Virus record (IMG/VR): IMGVR_UViG_3300012944_000001
Span: 32,001-96,000 of that record
DNA: 64,000 nucleotides
Source: a virus
Direction: 5' to 3' (one strand)
Part shown: positions 22,300-32,863 of the stretch, piece by piece
Numbering within the stretch: the stretch's first letter is position 1
Layout: each line of letters opens with the position of its first letter
The notes under the pieces: model-generated
Seen by the model: only the letters and a program-made list of their open reading frames with translations
Database searches by the model: none
Told to the model about the DNA's origin: nothing
Position numbers and translations under genes: made by a program

Positions 22300-22328
22300 T
22301 TGACAGAGACTAACAACTCTGTTAGTAT
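22300..22328 (+). promoter_or_regulatory. Promoter upstream of tRNA-Asn, the Y-RNA-like array and Ro60
   Basis: TTGACA-17 nt-TAGTAT. Confidence 0.7.
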
Positions 22329-22364: not shown

Positions 22365-22436
22365 TCCTTGATAGCTCAATGGCAGAGCAGTCGACTGTTA
22401 ATCGACCGGTTGTTGGTTCGAATCCAGCTCAGGGAG
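22365..22436 (+). tRNA. tRNA-Asn(GTT)
   Basis: GTCGA-CTGTTAA-TCGAC; canonical. Confidence 0.95.
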
Positions 22437-22497
22437 CCTTAGCCCCTTTTCAAGCCTCTCGATGAAGCTCAAATGAGAAGGGCCAAAATTTAAATTT

Positions 22498-22619
22498 GTG
22501 ACGATGCGAAGAATAGAGTTACTTCGGTTAATTAGTGGTTCGATTCCATTCTCTGTAGTAAAACACAGATAGGCGAGTATAAAAACTCGTACATACTTTA
22601 TTCAAATTTTTCTAGTCAC
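22498..22619 (+). ncRNA. Y-RNA-like element 1 (T-arm-containing cargo)
   Basis: GTGAC/GTCAC terminal stem, GATGCG, GAATAGAGT/ACTTTATTC stem, TACTTC, TTTCTA; cargo contains GTGG-TTCGATT-CCAT. Confidence 0.7.
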
Positions 22620-22625
22620 TTAAAC

Positions 22626-22718
22626 TTGATAGAAGGTTGGGGTAGCCTGCTAGCGGCTGTAATCGGGCGAAAACGTCCCTTGTAATACTGATACGAACGT
22701 TCACATCCCTTCTATCAA
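22626..22718 (+). ncRNA. Unclassified structured RNA inside the array
   Basis: Perfect 11-bp closing stem TTGATAGAAGG/CCTTCTATCAA and two internal hairpins; lacks the array motifs. Confidence 0.5.
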
Positions 22719-22725
22719 CTAACTT

Positions 22726-22866
22726 GACAGCGATGCGCAGATAAGAGATACTTCACAGGGAACTCCGGGTCGTAGGTTCGAATCCTACTCTATCGACTCT
22801 TCGGTAGATAGCTCAGTGGTAGAGCAGGGGTATATAAAGAACTTTTATCGACTTTTTCTAGCTGTC
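22726..22866 (+). ncRNA. YrlA-like Y RNA, element 2 (circularly permuted tRNA-like domain)
   Basis: GACAGC/GCTGTC stem plus array motifs; the T arm GTAGG-TTCGAAT-CCTAC precedes a closed acceptor-like hairpin and then a D arm TA-GCTC-AGTGGTA-GAGC; adjacent to Ro60. Confidence 0.85.
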
Positions 22867-22874
22867 TTTATTTT

Positions 22875-22967
22875 TATGACCAATGCGTAGGCACGGGGTT
22901 ACTTCAAATTAATTGATAATTGACGGGCATAGCCCAGTAAACCTCAGCCGATTATTTCTAGGTCATA
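22875..22967 (+). ncRNA. Y-RNA-like element 3
   Basis: TATGACC/GGTCATA stem, AATGCG, GGC..GGGGT/ACCTC.GCC stem, TACTTC, TTTCTA. Confidence 0.7.
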
Positions 22968-22979
22968 TAACTTAATATT

Positions 22980-23054
22980 TCTACCCGATGCGACGCCGCC
23001 GGTTACTTCAACCCTTCGCAGAAAAAATCCGGCCGCACATTTTTCTAGGGTGGA
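22980..23054 (+). ncRNA. Y-RNA-like element 4 (minimal cargo)
   Basis: TCTACCC/GGGTGGA stem, GATGCG, GCCGG/CCGGC stem, TACTTC, TTTCTA. Confidence 0.7.
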
Positions 23055-23061
23055 TCATTTT

Positions 23062-23169
23062 AGTTCCGATGCGTGGATTACTGGTTACTTCAATGCTAAT
23101 GAAAAGGTACGGTTCGAATCCGTTTAAGGCATGGCGCCCACACACCAGAAATCATTATTTCTAGGAACT
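23062..23169 (+). ncRNA. Y-RNA-like element 5 (anticodon-arm plus T-arm cargo)
   Basis: AGTTCC/GGAACT stem, GATGCG, GATTACTGGT/ACCAGAAATC stem, TACTTC, TTTCTA; cargo TTCA-ATGCTAA-TGAA then ACGG-TTCGAAT-CCGT. Confidence 0.7.
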
Positions 23170-23179
23170 TATTAATCTT

Positions 23180-23220
23180 CCCCTTGGTTAGGCATAGCCT
23201 TACTTGAGGGGTTTATTTTT
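23180..23220 (+). terminator. Terminator-like hairpin between the RNA array and Ro60
   Basis: CCCCT...AGGC/GCCT...AGGGG followed by TTTATTTTT. Confidence 0.55.
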
Positions 23221-23254
23221 ATCTACTTAACGTACCACAACATAGGAGGATACA

Positions 23255-24874
23255 ATGGGTAAGTTCAATAAGGTTAACAGCACAGGCGTTCAGTCACCTA
23301 TAAAGACTGTAGGAAAGATTATTAATCATGATGCTCGTGTAGCTTTTGCGCGGGATACCCAGTCTGAACTGTATTTGTTTGCAGTATCCAACTTTGTTGG
23401 TCAGGATACGTTCTATGAGAATGCTAAGGCCAGCGATGATCGCTTTGTTATCCTTTCTCAAAAGGCCGCTGTAGCAGATCGTGCCTGGTTTGGCTACTTC
23501 GTGAGCTGGCTTCGTAACGAGGCATTCATGCGTAGTGCTGCTGTTGTGGCGGCTGTTGAGGGTGCCAAGGCATTACACGCGGCTGAGTCGTTTGTAGGGG
23601 CTGAGAATGCCTCCTGGCCCCGTCATATAGTTAGTGCTGCTCAAGCACGAGCTGATGAGCCCGGTGAAGTATTAGGATACTATGAAGCTAAGTACGGTAA
23701 GAATTTCCCGGCTTGGTTAAAGAAGGGTGTTGCGGACGGCGCAAAGCGTCTCTATAATGAGTATTCTCTTCTTAAGTACGATACAGTTTCTCACGGTTAT
23801 CGTTTTTCTGATGTAATTCAGCTTACTCACCCTAAGCCTGATAATGAAATACAGGAACAACTATTTAAGTACGCGATGAATAGTCGATACAATAACACAG
23901 AGTTTGTTGGCCGAGAGAATCATCTGCCCATGATAGAGACTCGTAAGGCTATTATGGAAATGCCTGTTCGTAGTCGAAAGGCACTTATAGGTAAGGGCGG
24001 AACAGAGGTACAGAGCCTATTCAAGAATGCAGGAATGACGTGGGAAGCTCTGTCTGGCTGGCTTCAGGGTCCTATGGATGCTGCGGCTTGGGAAGCCGTT
24101 ATTCCTTCTATGGGATACATGGCGCTGCTTCGTAATCTTCGTAATTTCCAGAATGCTGGTATCCGTGCTAAGGTGCTGAAGGAAGTTCTTGGTAAGCTTG
24201 CTGATTTCGAGCAGGTTGCAAAGAGTAAGCAGTTCCCTTTCCGATTCCTTGCTGCTTACCAGGCAAATAAGGATAATCTACAGATCTCTGCCGCGCTAGA
24301 GAGTGCTTTGCAGGCTTCTTTGGCCAATGTCCCTTCCCTTAATGGGAATAGCTTGATTCTAGTTGATCGCTCTGGTAGCATGTTCCAGACTGGTGGAGGT
24401 GTCCAAGGACTCGATCGTGCAGACACGGCTGCTATTTTCGGTACCGCTCTGGCTATGCAAGCAGAAAAGGCTGATCTTGTGCAGTACGGTTCAGCATGGT
24501 ATGGTCAGGATAGTTCTTCCAAGGTAGTATCTTTCCGTAAGGGGAATTCTATTCTGCCGATGCTCAGTAAGTTTGAGAATCTTGGCGGAACAGACACCAC
24601 TGGAGCTATTAAGCGACACTTGACACCGAAGCATGACCGAGTTATTCTCATCACTGATGAGCAGTACAACGGCTATGGTGTCGATCCAGGAAGCATTGTT
24701 CCTGCTAAGATTCCGATGTACACTTGGAATCTTGGAGGATATCAAGCGGCTCACAGTGAGTCTGGTTCAAAGAAGCGTCACACCTTTGGCGGATTGACTG
24801 ATAAGGCATTTGTACAGATTCCTATGATTGAGGCTGGGCAGAATGCTGTATGGCCTTGGGAGGCTAAGAAGTGA
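23255..24874 (+). CDS. rsr: Ro60/TROVE-domain RNA-binding protein with C-terminal vWA domain
   Basis: TROVE motifs (TFYE, RADEPGE, KYD, TWEALS, MGYMALLRNLRN, SKQFPFRF); vWA MIDAS LVDRSGSM, GGTD and ITDEQ. Confidence 0.95.
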   Translation: MGKFNKVNSTGVQSPIKTVGKIINHDARVAFARDTQSELYLFAVSNFVGQDTFYENAKASDDRFVILSQKAAVADRAWFGYFVSWLRNEAFMRSAAVVAAVEGAKALHAAESFVGAENASWPRHIVSAAQARADEPGEVLGYYEAKYGKNFPAWLKKGVADGAKRLYNEYSLLKYDTVSHGYRFSDVIQLTHPKPDNEIQEQLFKYAMNSRYNNTEFVGRENHLPMIETRKAIMEMPVRSRKALIGKGGTEVQSLFKNAGMTWEALSGWLQGPMDAAAWEAVIPSMGYMALLRNLRNFQNAGIRAKVLKEVLGKLADFEQVAKSKQFPFRFLAAYQANKDNLQISAALESALQASLANVPSLNGNSLILVDRSGSMFQTGGGVQGLDRADTAAIFGTALAMQAEKADLVQYGSAWYGQDSSSKVVSFRKGNSILPMLSKFENLGGTDTTGAIKRHLTPKHDRVILITDEQYNGYGVDPGSIVPAKIPMYTWNLGGYQAAHSESGSKKRHTFGGLTDKAFVQIPMIEAGQNAVWPWEAKK

Positions 24875-24963
24875 GTAGGTGGTTCTGTATTTTTTGTCGA
24901 GAATGGTGGAAGCCGAGAGAAGCAAAGTGTCCAACATGTAGCCGACCAAAACCGTTGTCTTGA
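24871..24963 (+). CDS. 30-aa zinc finger (WxCxxC-x10-CxxC) coupled to Ro60
   Basis: GTG overlaps the Ro60 TGA; GGGAGG RBS; MSRWFCIFCREWWKPREAKCPTCSRPKPLS. Confidence 0.6.
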   Translation: MSRWFCIFCREWWKPREAKCPTCSRPKPLS

Positions 24964-29801: not shown

Positions 29802-30038
29802 GTGCGTCCATGGACTAAAGATGAAAGAGAAGCATATAAAGATTCGACCATGCATTATCACAAGTACGATCTCTATGGATATGTAGATGATCTTATTGAG
29901 ACTTGGCACACTTCTATGGGCCTAAATGTTTCTCTTTATAGTTTCCTAGGACTTTACGAAGGAGAAGTGTCAGACTGGGCCGGTAAGAATATCATTCCGG
30001 ATCGTATTGTAGTTATGTGGGAGGAAGGAGAATACTAA
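29802..30038 (+). CDS. Small hypothetical protein
   Basis: GAGGAGG RBS; stop overlaps the RNA ligase start. Confidence 0.7.
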   Translation: MRPWTKDEREAYKDSTMHYHKYDLYGYVDDLIETWHTSMGLNVSLYSFLGLYEGEVSDWAGKNIIPDRIVVMWEEGEY

Positions 30039-31114
30039 TGCTTATACATGATTTACTTAACATCCGGGATTTAGATACTATGCTTACGGAAGGTTATGTA
30101 AGATTTGGTATTCATCCCATTTTTCCAAATGTTCGTATATTTAACTACACTGAAAAGGCTCAATTCGCCAACGAGTGGAATGACATAACTCGACAATGCC
30201 GTGGTCTTATAGTTGATTGGGATACCAAAGAAGTACTTGCGCGCCCTTTTGACAAGTTCATGAATTATGGTCAAGATCAGGCAGACGTAATTCTTGCTGG
30301 CTATTCAGTTAAGGTATATGACAAGTTAGACGGATCTCTGGGAATTCTATTTCGTCGTCCTGATGGTTTTTGGGAAATAGCTACAAGAGGTTCCTTTCAA
30401 TCAGACCAGGCGTCGCATGCCACAATACTTCTTCGTCAAAAGTACAGTTCGTTTTTACTGGGATTAAATAGTGATCTTACATATATGTTTGAAATCATCT
30501 ATCCACAAAACCGTATCGTATTGGATTACGGAGACAAAGATTCCCTGGTATTACTTGGTGCCAGAAGTATTGACGAAGGCTCTACGTACGGGCCTGAGAG
30601 CCTCCCAGATTGGCACTGGGACCGAACTACTACCTTCCCTTACAAGACTCTCAGTGAGGCGCTGAAGGCCCCTCCTAGACCTAATGCAGAGGGTTACGTG
30701 GTCTACTTCCCGGAGTTGGACCACAGAGTCAAGATCAAGCAGGATGATTACATAGCGATGCACAAGATCGTTACGGGCTTGACAGAGCGTCGTATCTGGG
30801 AGAACATGAAGGAAGGTAAAACTCTAGAAGATCTTGTAAATATTATTCCAGACGAATGGCATGATTGGCTCCAAGAAACGTATACTAAGATCAAGAAAAA
30901 TTATTGGGCTGAATGGAGTACTATTCTTGAGGAGTTTAATACACATACCATGTGGTTGGACGTGGCTAATTATCAAAAATGGTCCCGAAAAGATTTTGCT
31001 TTGCGAGTTAAAGACTCAAGATATAAAGGCTTTATGTTTTTAATGTTGGATAATAACAACGTAACTGACAAGGTATGGCAATTGGTTCGACCACCCGCTG
31101 AGTCATTACTGTAA
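30038..31114 (+). CDS. T4 Rnl1-type RNA ligase
   Basis: CRGLI...ARPFDKF; motif I KLDGSL; ATRGSF; FEII.P.NRIV; EGYVV; VKIK. Confidence 0.9.
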   Translation: MLIHDLLNIRDLDTMLTEGYVRFGIHPIFPNVRIFNYTEKAQFANEWNDITRQCRGLIVDWDTKEVLARPFDKFMNYGQDQADVILAGYSVKVYDKLDGSLGILFRRPDGFWEIATRGSFQSDQASHATILLRQKYSSFLLGLNSDLTYMFEIIYPQNRIVLDYGDKDSLVLLGARSIDEGSTYGPESLPDWHWDRTTTFPYKTLSEALKAPPRPNAEGYVVYFPELDHRVKIKQDDYIAMHKIVTGLTERRIWENMKEGKTLEDLVNIIPDEWHDWLQETYTKIKKNYWAEWSTILEEFNTHTMWLDVANYQKWSRKDFALRVKDSRYKGFMFLMLDNNNVTDKVWQLVRPPAESLL

Positions 31115-31708: not shown

Positions 31709-31771
31709 ACACGAATCTCTGTATAGTGTAGGATGTACTGCACTATACAGATTTTTTATAAGGAGGCAAAT

Positions 31772-32863
31772 ATGTGGGGAAACTTAGAATATATTTCAAA
31801 CATCGATCAGCTATATATGTTGGCTTCTGAAAATGATAATGTCGCCGAGGTGCTGGCAGATAAATCTAAGGGCCGCGCATCAGTATGTAAAATTCTTGCG
31901 GGCAGCGGATATGCTGTATCTGAGAAATTAATTCGTACATTTCGCAATAAACAAGAAGCAATTACAGATAAAAATATTAGAGAGGCGATGGACTATATCC
32001 AGGAGTCATATAACTATAGTCCTACATATAGCACCACAGAAGGCCAGGTTCATACAGTACCCGGATATTGCAATGTAACTAATATTTCAAAAAATACTAA
32101 AGCAAAGACTATTGTTATCATGCCAGATGTGCAAGCGCCATTGCATGATGTTGCTTTGGTAGATAAGTTCATTGATTTCCTAGGAGACTATCAGCCAGAT
32201 GAGCTTGCGCAAGTTGGAGATTTCACTGATTCTACTGAAATCAGTCGGTGGGTACGAGGTAAGAAAACCGAATATGCAGGAGACCTACAAGACGGATTCA
32301 ATTCTGCCAGAGGCATCTTGGAAAGTATCAGAGAAGTATTCGATGGACGATTCCGTATAGTCCGGTCGAATCATGATGACCGACTTGAGCTTTATATTGA
32401 ATCGTGCGCTCCTGGATTGGCGTCCCTTGATGTACTTTCCATTGAGAACCTTTCTGGATTCGATGAATTCGATGTCGAGTTTGTACGAGACGAAGTTGTA
32501 GAACTTGCGCCTGGTTGGGTCATGGCACACGGAGATGAAGGTTCTTTGAGTCCATCAGCGGGTCGTACAGCCTTTGGTTTGGCCAAGAACAAGTTTGGTA
32601 CCAGTACTGTCTGTGGACATACTCACAGAGCTGGTATGACATCAGAGAGTACAGGTTACAACGGAAAGATTCGTAATACCCTGACAGGTCTTGAGGTAGG
32701 TCACTTTATGGATCTTACTAAGGCCGATTATCTAAAGAAAAAGGGAGTAGCTGCTAATTGGCAGCAAGCCTTTGGAATTCTTGAGATTCACGGTTCTCGT
32801 GTGTATCCCAGACTTGTCACTGTTCAGGATGGTTGTTTCTCGGTAGATGGTCAACTTTACTAG
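31772..32863 (+). CDS. Calcineurin-like metallophosphoesterase with N-terminal extension
   Basis: PDVQ, GDFTD, SNHD, HGD, GHTH motifs; AAGGAGG RBS before ATG 31772. Confidence 0.9.
   Translation: MWGNLEYISNIDQLYMLASENDNVAEVLADKSKGRASVCKILAGSGYAVSEKLIRTFRNKQEAITDKNIREAMDYIQESYNYSPTYSTTEGQVHTVPGYCNVTNISKNTKAKTIVIMPDVQAPLHDVALVDKFIDFLGDYQPDELAQVGDFTDSTEISRWVRGKKTEYAGDLQDGFNSARGILESIREVFDGRFRIVRSNHDDRLELYIESCAPGLASLDVLSIENLSGFDEFDVEFVRDEVVELAPGWVMAHGDEGSLSPSAGRTAFGLAKNKFGTSTVCGHTHRAGMTSESTGYNGKIRNTLTGLEVGHFMDLTKADYLKKKGVAANWQQAFGILEIHGSRVYPRLVTVQDGCFSVDGQLY

What the first reader, a model, noticed from the sequence alone, without database searches (positions are those of the whole stretch)
22498..24963. 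Phage Ro60 locus with a tandem array of five modular Y-RNA-like RNAs: constant scaffold, variable cargo
Seen in sequence: five elements (22498-22619, 22726-22866, 22875-22967, 22980-23054, 23062-23169) lie immediately upstream of a TROVE/Ro60 gene, behind one promoter (22300). Each has the same order of parts: terminal stem ending in C, (G/A)ATGCG, a second stem, (T/A)ACTTC, a variable module, second stem 3' strand, TTTCTA, terminal stem 3' strand. The stems differ in sequence but stay complementary (GTGAC/GTCAC, GACAGC/GCTGTC, TATGACC/GGTCATA, TCTACCC/GGGTGGA, AGTTCC/GGAACT), so structure is what is conserved. Established: Ro60/Rsr binds Y RNAs through a stem formed by the RNA ends; bacterial YrlA RNAs lie next to rsr and carry a tRNA-like module; Deinococcus Rsr-Y RNA tethers PNPase. 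Inference: one Ro60 is loaded with five RNAs carrying different effector modules, giving a modular RNP set. Possible roles are decoying host tRNA-targeting defences or tethering repair/decay enzymes. I do not recognise this motif set or an array this long from described loci, but cannot confirm novelty without a search.
Basis: partly seen in the sequence, partly recalled or inferred. Interest (0 to 1): 0.95.

Follow-up and report, generated by a model that had tools for sequence, protein, structure and literature searches.

The report
Five Y RNA genes beside phage Ro60
An uncultured soil-type phage carries five small RNA genes in a row, all sharing the same "handle" for the ring protein Ro60 encoded next to them but each with a different tRNA-like piece. 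This is an enlarged version of the two- or three-RNA sets that I found beside the Ro60 gene of Streptomyces bacteria.

Summary
Window 22498-23169 holds exactly five elements with one scaffold:
- a terminal stem ending in C-G;
- (G/A)AUGCG;
- a second stem of 8-10 bp;
- an invariant UACUUC;
- a variable module;
- UUUCUA.

Both stems covary strongly. A covariance model built from them finds only these five in the whole 111.9-kb phage genome.

The same model finds 1-8 copies within about 2.5 kb of the Ro60 gene in every actinophage tested, and 2-3 copies upstream of rsr in most of the 44 cellular loci (nearly all Streptomyces) searched.

They are therefore Y RNAs of the YrlA/YrlB kind, an expanded phage version of a host-type locus, and not a new system. 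The handle is a variant of the published CGAA Ro60-binding motif.

Rfam detects only element 2, below threshold. GenBank relatives leave these elements unannotated or call them tRNAs or small ORFs.

One detail I did not find in the papers I could read. Element 5 and many relatives carry an intact anticodon-like arm (7-nt loop, U33, A37) whose triplet differs between related phages.

Binding, expression and function remain untested.

This scan has already noted Ro60-like genes with RNA arrays in many other phages.

The parts
22300..22328 (+). Promoter-like site TTGACA-17-TAGTAT (10/12, TG extension) upstream of tRNA-Asn and the array
   Evidence: Consensus scan only. The 8 sites found in the region compare with 5.1 expected, so this is not evidence of function.
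22365..22438 (+). tRNA-Asn(GTT). It directly precedes the array here and in all BRock-like relatives.
   Evidence: ARAGORN; Rfam 65.8 bits; synteny in L001-L004, L006 and L007.
22446..22483 (+). Hairpin between tRNA-Asn and element 1, with a sub-threshold match to the Rfam abiF motif
   Evidence: 32.6 bits against a gathering score of 37, E 8.6e-4 in a 1-kb search. Fold -15.5 kcal/mol, z -2.2. Absent from the nearest relative L007.
22498..22619 (+). Y RNA element 1 (122 nt). Handle (terminal stem 22498-22502/22615-22619, GAUGCG, stem 2, UACUUC 22520-22525) plus a T-arm-like hairpin (22534-22550) and two further hairpins.
   Evidence: R1 73.2 bits, E 7e-19. Motifs and stems. The hairpins are in the MFE fold. 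My reading of the Alone3 ortholog shows the second and third hairpins kept with changed sequence.
22626..22718 (+). Structured insert of unknown kind between elements 1 and 2. It has an 11-bp closing stem and no Y-RNA handle.
   Evidence: Fold -27.2 kcal/mol. 89% identical block only in IMG/VR contig L007. No Rfam match.
22726..22866 (+). Y RNA element 2 (141 nt). Canonical YrlA type: handle plus T arm, closed acceptor-like hairpin and D arm (a permuted tRNA opened at the anticodon loop).
   Evidence: Rfam YrlA RF02553 full-length alignment, 37.7 bits (gathering 69), E 1.8e-6. R1 96.5 bits. Orthologs in relatives also hit YrlA below threshold.
22875..22967 (+). Y RNA element 3 (93 nt). Handle (AAUGCG variant) plus a short module with a GGGC/GCCC hairpin.
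   Evidence: R1 60.7 bits, E 3e-15. Stems. No Rfam match.
22980..23054 (+). Y RNA element 4 (75 nt). Minimal, YrlB-like: handle plus a small loop.
   Evidence: R1 53.3 bits, E 5e-13. Stems.
23062..23169 (+). Y RNA element 5 (108 nt). Handle plus anticodon-like arm, variable loop AAGGU and T arm (23109-23123). Here and in L007 the D arm and the long closed acceptor seen in BRock, Alone3, GiJojo, pSt2308 and L006 are missing.
   Evidence: R1 80.3 bits, E 6e-21. Ortholog comparison.
23089..23103 (+). Anticodon-stem-loop mimic inside element 5: UUCA-AUGCUAA-UGAA (U33, triplet GCU, A37, A38)
   Evidence: Read from the sequence. 15 of 44 T-arm-bearing phage elements have such an arm, against 1.4% of shuffles. 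The triplet differs among orthologs. The arm is not in the single-sequence MFE fold.
23180..23223 (+). Terminator-like hairpin followed by UUUAUUUUU, between the array and the Ro60 gene
   Evidence: Fold of 23170-23254. A hairpin plus U-run sits at the same place, with different sequence, in BRock, Alone3, L006 and L007. The simple terminator scan missed it.
23230..23249 (+). Conserved ACGTACCAC box followed by the AGGAGG ribosome-binding site of Ro60
   Evidence: Single exact occurrence in the window. The same box lies upstream of the Ro60 start in BRock, pSt2308, Alone3, GiJojo, L006 and L007.
23255..24874 (+). Ro60 (Rsr) ortholog, 539 aa: TROVE domain plus vWA domain with a DxSxS (DRSGS) metal site
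   Evidence: Pfam TROVE 1.3e-18, VWA_2 below cut-off. PHROG 850 'RNA-binding protein' 7e-41. Best solved relative is Thermus phage phiLo Ro60, 9KOP/9L5Y, E 4e-21. 59-67% identical to BRock-like phage Ro60 and about 50% to cellular Streptomyces Rsr.
30017..31114 (+). Context: T4 Rnl1-type RNA ligase at the end of the tRNA cluster, followed by a metallophosphoesterase (31733-32863)
   Evidence: Pfam RNA_lig_T4_1 1.7e-14. PHROG 562 2.5e-78 and PHROG 221 3.8e-71.

Best explanation
The region is a cluster of five Y RNA genes: one YrlA-type (element 2), three with partial or no tRNA-like parts (elements 1, 3 and 4), and one with an anticodon arm plus T arm (element 5). They serve the phage-encoded Ro60 ring protein.

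Inferred steps:
- The RNAs are transcribed on the + strand within the phage's 28-tRNA cluster, probably together with tRNA-Asn.
- Transcription ends at the hairpin at 23180-23223.
- The precursor is cut at the 7-12-nt A/U-rich spacers into RNAs of 75-141 nt.
- Each RNA binds Ro60 through the shared handle. The handle is the terminal stem closed by an invariant C-G pair, the asymmetric internal loop (CGAUGCG on the 5' side, UUUCUA on the 3' side), stem 2, and UACUUC.
- The differing modules (T arm, whole permuted tRNA, anticodon arm, plain loops) then give the Ro60 particle different partners or gates.

By analogy with Deinococcus, Salmonella and Thermus phage phiLo, the most likely partner is a host 3'-5' exoribonuclease such as PNPase, and/or tRNA-binding enzymes. 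That would place the particles in surveillance or turnover of structured RNA, tRNA above all, during infection.

Shown here: the scaffold, its covariation, its exclusive linkage to Ro60, and the tRNA-like modules. Inferred: expression, processing, binding and biological role.
For: Scaffold and numbers:
- Motif clustering is far above chance.
- The terminal stem has 6 of 7 pairs with compensatory changes. One pair shows AU 10, GC 9, CG 7, UA 6 and none broken.
- Stem 2 is present in all 32 aligned elements.
- Covariation is well above the shuffled and slid controls on both the MAFFT and the model-fitted alignments.
- Many G-U pairs mark the + strand as the RNA strand.
- Exactly five model hits in the window and in the genome.

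Linkage to Ro60:
- Model hits lie next to Ro60 in all 23 actinophage loci.
- They lie upstream of rsr in most of the 44 cellular loci searched.
- Genome-wide, hits occur only near Ro60 in five more complete phage genomes.
- A control chosen as a negative, Phredrick, had a model hit, and that hit lay 0.8 kb upstream of a TROVE gene I had not known about. phiKZ has neither.

Identity:
- Element 2 and its orthologs align to Rfam YrlA.
- The handle's CGAUG/CGAAG matches the published GNCGAAN0-1G / CGAA Ro60-binding motif (PMC4201824; PMC12135203).

Published precedents:
- M. smegmatis YrlA and YrlB lie upstream of rsr and are cut from one precursor.
- Phage phiLo Ro60 binds two upstream Yrl RNAs and PNPase.

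Locus layout:
- In Arthrobacter phage Atuin the elements lie on both sides of Ro60, so they are genes and not an mRNA leader.
Against: - There are no expression, end-mapping or binding data for this phage or its relatives.
- The Rfam YrlA gathering score is not reached by any element.
- The Rfam search down to E 10 returned no metazoan Y RNA model.
- Single-sequence fold z-scores are unremarkable.
- The handle has U where the published motif has A (CGAUG against CGAAG).
- UACUUC is invariant but no role for it is known.
- I could not fetch the experimentally validated M. smegmatis locus for a direct comparison.
Confidence: 0.85

Rival explanations
1. The elements are real structured RNAs, but they work independently of Ro60, for example as free tRNA-like decoys or processing substrates. 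They sit beside the gene only because the block was inherited together.
For: No binding data exist. A terminator-like hairpin separates the array from Ro60, so the two may be expressed separately. The modules alone resemble tRNA parts.
Against: The part conserved across all elements, phages and most cellular loci is the handle and not the modules. The handle carries the published Ro60-binding motif variant. Linkage to Ro60 holds across Ro60 proteins only 33-50% identical, and on either side of the gene.
Confidence: 0.07
2. The array is a cis-acting leader or processing cassette that controls Ro60 mRNA by attenuation or stability, and does not encode separate trans-acting RNAs.
For: It lies directly upstream on the same strand. 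A terminator-like hairpin and a conserved ACGTACCAC box lie between it and the Ro60 start.
Against: In Atuin four elements lie downstream of Ro60 and one lies 0.5 kb upstream, behind three tRNA genes. In Kela an RNA ligase gene lies between the elements and Ro60. Each unit closes on itself with its own terminal stem. M. smegmatis homologs accumulate as separate Rsr-bound RNAs.
Confidence: 0.04
3. The elements are decaying tRNA genes or tRNA-derived repeats with no function of their own, left within a large phage tRNA cluster.
For: They lie inside a 28-tRNA cluster. They contain T arms, a D arm and an anticodon-like arm. Some relatives are annotated as tRNAs in GenBank.
Against: Elements 3 and 4 have no tRNA parts yet keep the full handle. 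The handle stems covary, which needs selection. The order of the units is kept in most of the seven phages, whose Ro60 is only about 60% identical. ARAGORN and Rfam do not call any of the five a tRNA.
Confidence: 0.03

Closest known systems
Bacterial YrlA/YrlB Y RNAs with Rsr (Salmonella Typhimurium, Mycobacterium smegmatis; Chen et al. 2014, PMC4201824; Rfam RF02553)
   Same: - The RNAs are encoded next to the Ro60 ortholog.
- The two RNA ends pair to form a stem.
- A CGAA-type motif lies on the 5' strand.
- One RNA carries a permuted tRNA-like domain (T arm, closed acceptor, D arm).
- Shorter partner RNAs lack it.
- In M. smegmatis the RNAs lie upstream of rsr and are cut from one precursor.
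   Different: - Five RNAs instead of two.
- CGAUG instead of CGAAG in the handle.
- Additional invariant UACUUC and UUUCUA boxes.
- The Rfam model scores only 37.7 bits against a gathering score of 69, and for one element only.
- Element 5 has an intact anticodon-like arm, which the paper's text describes only for Yrn1, and there with a 6-nt loop.
Thermus phage phiLo Ro60 with Yrl1 and Yrl2 (NAR 2025, PMC12135203; PDB 9KOP, 9L5Y)
   Same: A phage-encoded Ro60 with Y-RNA-like genes upstream, recognised by a CGAA-type motif and a stem-bulge-stem shape. It is the best solved-structure match of this Ro60, E 4e-21.
   Different: Two RNAs instead of five. Protein identity is only about 24%. The host phylum differs. 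Binding and PNPase complexes were shown there and not here.
Deinococcus radiodurans Rsr-Yrn1-PNPase (RYPER) particle
   Same: This is the functional model: a Y RNA tethers Ro60 to an exoribonuclease through its non-handle module.
   Different: By the authors' account it is a separate RNA lineage with a different arrangement of tRNA-like parts. No PNPase link was tested here.
Cellular rsr loci, nearly all Streptomyces (found here, unannotated)
   Same: The same handle family, in tandem, directly upstream of a Ro60 about 50% identical. Most loci show a long-short-long layout of 2-3 units, and the first long unit often carries an anticodon-like arm.
   Different: Two or three units instead of five. 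The 3' box is mostly UCUCG instead of UUCUAG. This was read on the higher-G+C IMG/VR contigs and not checked on the cellular loci themselves. The loci are not embedded in a tRNA cluster.
Ro60-like (DUF2828/TROVE-like) genes with RNA arrays in crAss-like and other phages, noted earlier in this scan
   Same: A ring protein plus a row of small RNAs with one handle and tRNA-like pieces (AI notes that I did not check).
   Different: Those have very divergent proteins and another handle (for example ACAGCAA). Here the protein is a plain TROVE Ro60 and the handle is of the YrlA type.

Membership tests
Y RNA (bacterial YrlA/YrlB type) | Encoded within a few kb of a Ro60/Rsr gene | tested here: met
   The array ends 86 bp before the Ro60 start. 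Co-location holds in every complete Ro60-encoding phage genome scanned.
Y RNA (bacterial YrlA/YrlB type) | A stem formed by the 5' and 3' ends, supported by covariation | tested here: met
   7-pair terminal stem, 96.9% of cells paired, 6 pairs with compensatory changes.
Y RNA (bacterial YrlA/YrlB type) | Conserved 5'-strand Ro60-binding motif GNCGAAN0-1G / CGAA | tested here: inconclusive
   The window has C-GAUGCG (once C-AAUGCG), which is one base off. Relatives in the same model family have CGAAGUG or CGGUGCG. The motif definition is from PMC4201824 and PMC12135203.
Y RNA (bacterial YrlA/YrlB type) | At least one RNA per locus with a tRNA-like domain (T arm, closed acceptor, D arm) | tested here: met
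   Element 2 aligns to all 114 positions of Rfam YrlA, including both arms.
Y RNA (bacterial YrlA/YrlB type) | Rfam RF02553 gathering score (69 bits) | tested here: not met
   Best is 37.7 bits, for element 2. The other four have no match. The five cellular and twelve phage loci scanned at gathering score had no YrlA match either, so the curated model appears not to cover this actinobacterial branch.
Y RNA (bacterial YrlA/YrlB type) | Physically bound by Ro60 and dependent on it for stability | not testable with these tools
   Needs RIP/EMSA and northern blots in wild-type and Ro60-deleted phage.
Y RNA (bacterial YrlA/YrlB type) | Size of about 80-150 nt | tested here: met
   The predicted units are 122, 141, 93, 75 and 108 nt. 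The true ends are not mapped.
Ro60 / Rsr protein | TROVE domain followed by a vWA domain with a MIDAS site | tested here: met
   TROVE 67.9 bits (cut-off 23). VWA_2 20.8 bits (below the cut-off of 27), but DRSGS is aligned to the phiLo Ro60 vWA region.
Metazoan Y RNA (Rfam Y_RNA model) | Match to the curated model | tested here: not met
   The Rfam search down to E 10 returned no metazoan Y RNA model. The resemblance of CCGAUGCGUAG to the 5' end of human Y4 is recalled from memory only.

The most novel reading that the evidence does not exclude
The 'class B' Y RNAs are element 5 here, its orthologs, and many units at other actinophage and Streptomyces Ro60 loci. They display a complete anticodon stem-loop (4-5-bp stem, 7-nt loop, U33, A37) on a Ro60 handle.

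The triplet changes between closely related phages while the flanks stay fixed: GCU, GGA, GAU, GUU and others.

The array would then be a panel of Ro60-tethered baits or sensors for enzymes that read anticodon loops, such as anticodon nucleases of toxin or defence systems, or modification enzymes. Ro60 and its nuclease or ligase partners would be coupled to tRNA damage during infection. The phage expansion to five or more units would reflect an arms race.
Probability: 0.15. Interest if true: 0.85.

Novelty: new variant of a known kind. Interest (0 to 1): 0.55.

Why it matters
Ro60 and Y RNAs are conserved from bacteria to humans, where Ro60 is a major lupus and Sjogren autoantigen. What the variable part of a Y RNA does is still largely open.

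These phage loci offer a natural series. The protein and the handle are fixed, and there are up to five to eight different modules, several of them recognisable tRNA parts. That makes the 'module decides the partner' idea directly testable in cultivable Streptomyces phages.

There is also a practical point. The handle model finds unannotated Y RNAs in actinophages and Streptomyces that the curated Rfam model misses. It also flags tRNA and small-ORF annotations in GenBank that overlap these RNAs and probably need review.

Tried and rejected
- **Rfam at gathering score.** The window gave only tRNAs, and 17 related loci gave no YrlA.
- **Metazoan Y RNA.** The Rfam search to E 10 returned no such model.
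- **M. smegmatis locus.** I tried to fetch the experimentally validated YrlA/YrlB locus using the published probe sequences. There were no hits for YrlA-5', and only unrelated genomes for a YrlB core. A direct model test on proven Rsr-bound RNAs was therefore not possible.
- **RNAalifold on the MAFFT alignment.** It recovered only the terminal stem. Stem 2 had to be found per sequence and then modelled.
- **Structured insert at 22626-22718.** BLAST and an IMG/VR pattern scan found it in a single other contig, too few for covariation.
- **ACGTACCAC as a recurring phage promoter.** The only exact copy is upstream of Ro60.
- **Protein-coding reading.** The 58-aa ORF at 22988-23164 is rejected by inference. 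It spans elements 4-5, whose orthologs differ in length by amounts not divisible by three.
- **Anticodon-like loop in element 3.**
- **Pairing of UACUUC with GGGGUAU in element 2.** It appears in the MFE fold but, on my reading of the Alone3 sequence, it is not conserved there.
Full report
**What the window is.** It is part of a complete 111,914-bp IMG/VR phage genome with direct terminal repeats. Twenty-eight tRNA genes lie on the + strand between 17.7 and 29.6 kb. Inside this cluster, at 23255-24874, is a 539-aa protein with a TROVE domain (1.3e-18) and a vWA region carrying DRSGS. Its best solved relative is the Ro60 of Thermus phage phiLo. Its closest relatives are the 'Ro-like RNA binding proteins' of Streptomyces phages BRock, Alone3, GiJojo and pSt2308 (59-61% identity), two IMG/VR contigs (65-67%), and cellular Streptomyces Rsr (about 50%).

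The five elements are at the stated coordinates. ATGCG-N8-16-ACTTC occurs six times in 64 kb against 0.74 expected, and five of the six lie within 600 bp. A script found the following in each element:
- a terminal stem of 5-7 bp that abuts (G/A)ATGCG on the 5' side and TTTCTA on the 3' side;
- a second stem of 8-10 bp that starts two bases after GAUGCG and ends at TACTTC.

Folding energies of the single sequences are unremarkable, so the case rests on comparison.

**Comparative support.** The BRock-like phages have a homologous array of four or five units after tRNA-Asn, mostly in the same order. A MAFFT alignment of 32 units shows invariant C, UGCG, UACUUC and UU.CUAG.
- Terminal stem: 6 of 7 pairs have compensatory changes. 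One pair reads AU 10, GC 9, CG 7, UA 6 with none broken.
- Both stems together: 85.6% of cells pair, against 56% in shuffles and 34-52% when the partner is slid. There are 146 double changes against 47 expected.
- Frequent G-U pairs mark the + strand as the RNA strand.

**Specificity and linkage to Ro60.** I built a covariance model (R1).
- In the window it finds exactly five hits (53-96 bits), also with filters off. It finds the same five in the whole genome.
- It finds 1-8 hits next to Ro60 in all 23 actinophage loci. One IMG/VR contig has 7-8 in a row. Arthrobacter phage Atuin has one upstream and four downstream of Ro60. Gordonia phage Neville has four.
- In five further complete phage genomes (76-194 kb), every hit is within about 2.5 kb of Ro60.
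- I chose Streptomyces phage Phredrick as a control, assuming it lacked Ro60, but the model found a hit there. A Pfam scan then showed a TROVE gene 0.8 kb downstream of that hit. phiKZ has neither.
- On the enlarged, model-fitted alignment of 63 phage units, 90.4% of cells pair against 55.5% in shuffles.

**What it is.** Element 2 and its orthologs align end to end with Rfam YrlA, including the T arm, closed acceptor and D arm, but at 29-47 bits against a gathering score of 69. The handle's C-GAUGCG is CGAAGUG or CGGUGCG in other members of the same model family. It is therefore a variant of the GNCGAAN0-1G / CGAA motif that Chen et al. 2014 and the phiLo study take as the Ro60-binding signature. 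M. smegmatis YrlA and YrlB are likewise encoded upstream of rsr and cut from one precursor.

Most of the 44 cellular rsr loci searched (nearly all Streptomyces) carry two or three R1 hits directly upstream, mostly in a long-short-long layout. The phage array is thus an expanded copy of a host-type locus. The motif set is the actinobacterial Y-RNA handle and is not peculiar to this phage. The loci I scanned at Rfam's gathering score gave no YrlA match, cellular or phage. In the papers I could search, phage Y RNAs are reported for 22 phages by a tRNA-domain model and for phiLo with two RNAs. I found no description of such arrays.

**The modules.**
- Element 1: a T-arm-like hairpin and two further hairpins.
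- Element 2: canonical YrlA.
- Elements 3 and 4: short, without tRNA parts.
- Element 5: UUCA-AUGCUAA-UGAA, then a five-base variable loop and a T arm. That is the 3' two-thirds of a tRNA in native order.
- In BRock, Alone3, GiJojo, pSt2308 and L006 the orthologous unit continues with a closed acceptor and a D arm. It is then a whole permuted tRNA opened between the D arm and the anticodon arm.

Fifteen of 44 T-arm-bearing phage units have an arm of at least 4 bp with a 7-nt loop, U at position 2 and a purine at position 6. The rate in shuffles is 1.4%. The stems covary (UUCA/UGAA, UUCAC/GUGAG, UUCGC/GCGAG, UCGCU/AGCGA and others). The central triplet differs between orthologs:

| Phage | Triplet |
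|---|---|
| Window | GCU |
| L007 | GGA |
| BRock | GAU |
| pSt2308 | GAU |
| Alone3 | GCU |
| L006 | GUU |

A regex scan of all 80 cellular loci found the same kind of arm, with loops CUCUUAA, CUCAUAA, CUGUUAA and others. The text of Chen et al. mentions an anticodon arm only for Yrn1, with a 6-nt loop. The triplet variation may simply be neutral drift in an unconstrained loop.

**Layout and likely expression (inference).**
- A promoter-like site lies at 22300. A second, equally good one (TTGACA-17-GATACT) overlaps the 5' end of element 2. Element 2's terminal stem is nearly invariant among relatives.
- A hairpin plus U-run at 23180-23223 follows element 5. It is matched in position, but not in sequence, in the relatives I read.
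- The array is therefore probably its own transcription unit together with tRNA-Asn, with Ro60 expressed by read-through or from its own signals.
- An Rnl1-type RNA ligase and a metallophosphoesterase close the tRNA cluster. In phage Kela an RNA ligase gene sits between the Y RNAs and Ro60. This recalls the bacterial rsr-yrlBA-rtcBA RNA-repair operon named in earlier notes of this scan.

**Function.** The best-supported reading is a set of Ro60 particles whose modules choose partners: PNPase by analogy with Deinococcus, Salmonella and phiLo, or tRNA-binding enzymes. A preprint reports that a Ro60-like protein of phage Bas63 counters a defence system. The decoy or sensor idea remains speculative.

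**Verdict.** This is a real, well-supported Y RNA array and a new variant of a known kind. Other agents of this scan have already noted Ro60-like genes with RNA arrays in many other phages (not checked by me). This locus is the version closest to textbook Ro60/YrlA.

Noticed in passing
window 22626-22718: A 93-nt block between elements 1 and 2 folds into a multi-branch structure closed by an 11-bp stem. It has no Y-RNA handle and no Rfam match. It is shared at 89% identity with only one other IMG/VR contig (L007 1866-1960).
   Followed up: partly
window 22446-22483: The hairpin right after tRNA-Asn matches the Rfam abiF motif just below threshold (32.6 against 37 bits). abiF RNAs are named for abortive-infection genes, so a phage copy could be a mimic. 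The match is weak, and the hairpin is absent from the nearest relative.
   Followed up: no
window 22724-22752: A promoter-like TTGACA-17-GATACT is built from element 2's own terminal stem and its UACUUC box. This terminal stem (GACAGC) is almost invariant in seven phages, while the other units' stems vary freely. That hints at a second constraint, such as an internal promoter.
   Followed up: partly
window 23230-23238: ACGTACCAC lies 6 nt upstream of the Ro60 ribosome-binding site. It is conserved in all BRock-like relatives I read and occurs only once in the window. It may be a regulatory site for Ro60 expression.
   Followed up: partly
window 24871-24963: A 30-codon ORF starts at a GTG that overlaps the Ro60 stop codon. 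It encodes a CxxC...CxxC mini-protein. L007 has a 93-aa ORF at the same place ending in a similar CAFCEGWH motif, and BRock has an annotated 74-aa hypothetical gene there.
   Followed up: partly
L003 2099-2172; L004 2059-2133; L020 2204-2275; L021 1882-2292: Some GenBank features overlap Y RNA units found by the model. These are tRNA-Ser(gct) of Alone3, tRNA-Arg(cct) of GiJojo and tRNA-Arg(tct) of VanLee, which fall on units with an anticodon-like arm. Three small hypothetical CDS of Gordonia phage Neville (gp88-90) also overlap units. The annotated Neville Ro60 start also looks too far upstream.
   Followed up: partly
L001 4225-4388; L003 4292-4524: Sub-threshold matches to the manA RNA motif (48-50 bits against 55) lie between the two tRNA-Lys genes of BRock and Alone3. 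The window has only a 41-nt gap at that place.
   Followed up: no
L022 1344-2481: In Streptomyces phage Kela the order is two Y-RNA-like units, an RNA ligase gene, then Ro60. This is a compact Y RNA / ligase / Ro60 cluster.
   Followed up: no
L003 2100-2171 and orthologs in L004, L006: In the long class-B units GAUGCG is complementary to the first six bases after the T arm (UGCGUC or CGCGUC). An alternative tRNA-like cloverleaf with a six-pair acceptor could therefore form. This probably explains the tRNA calls. I checked the pairing by hand only.
   Followed up: no
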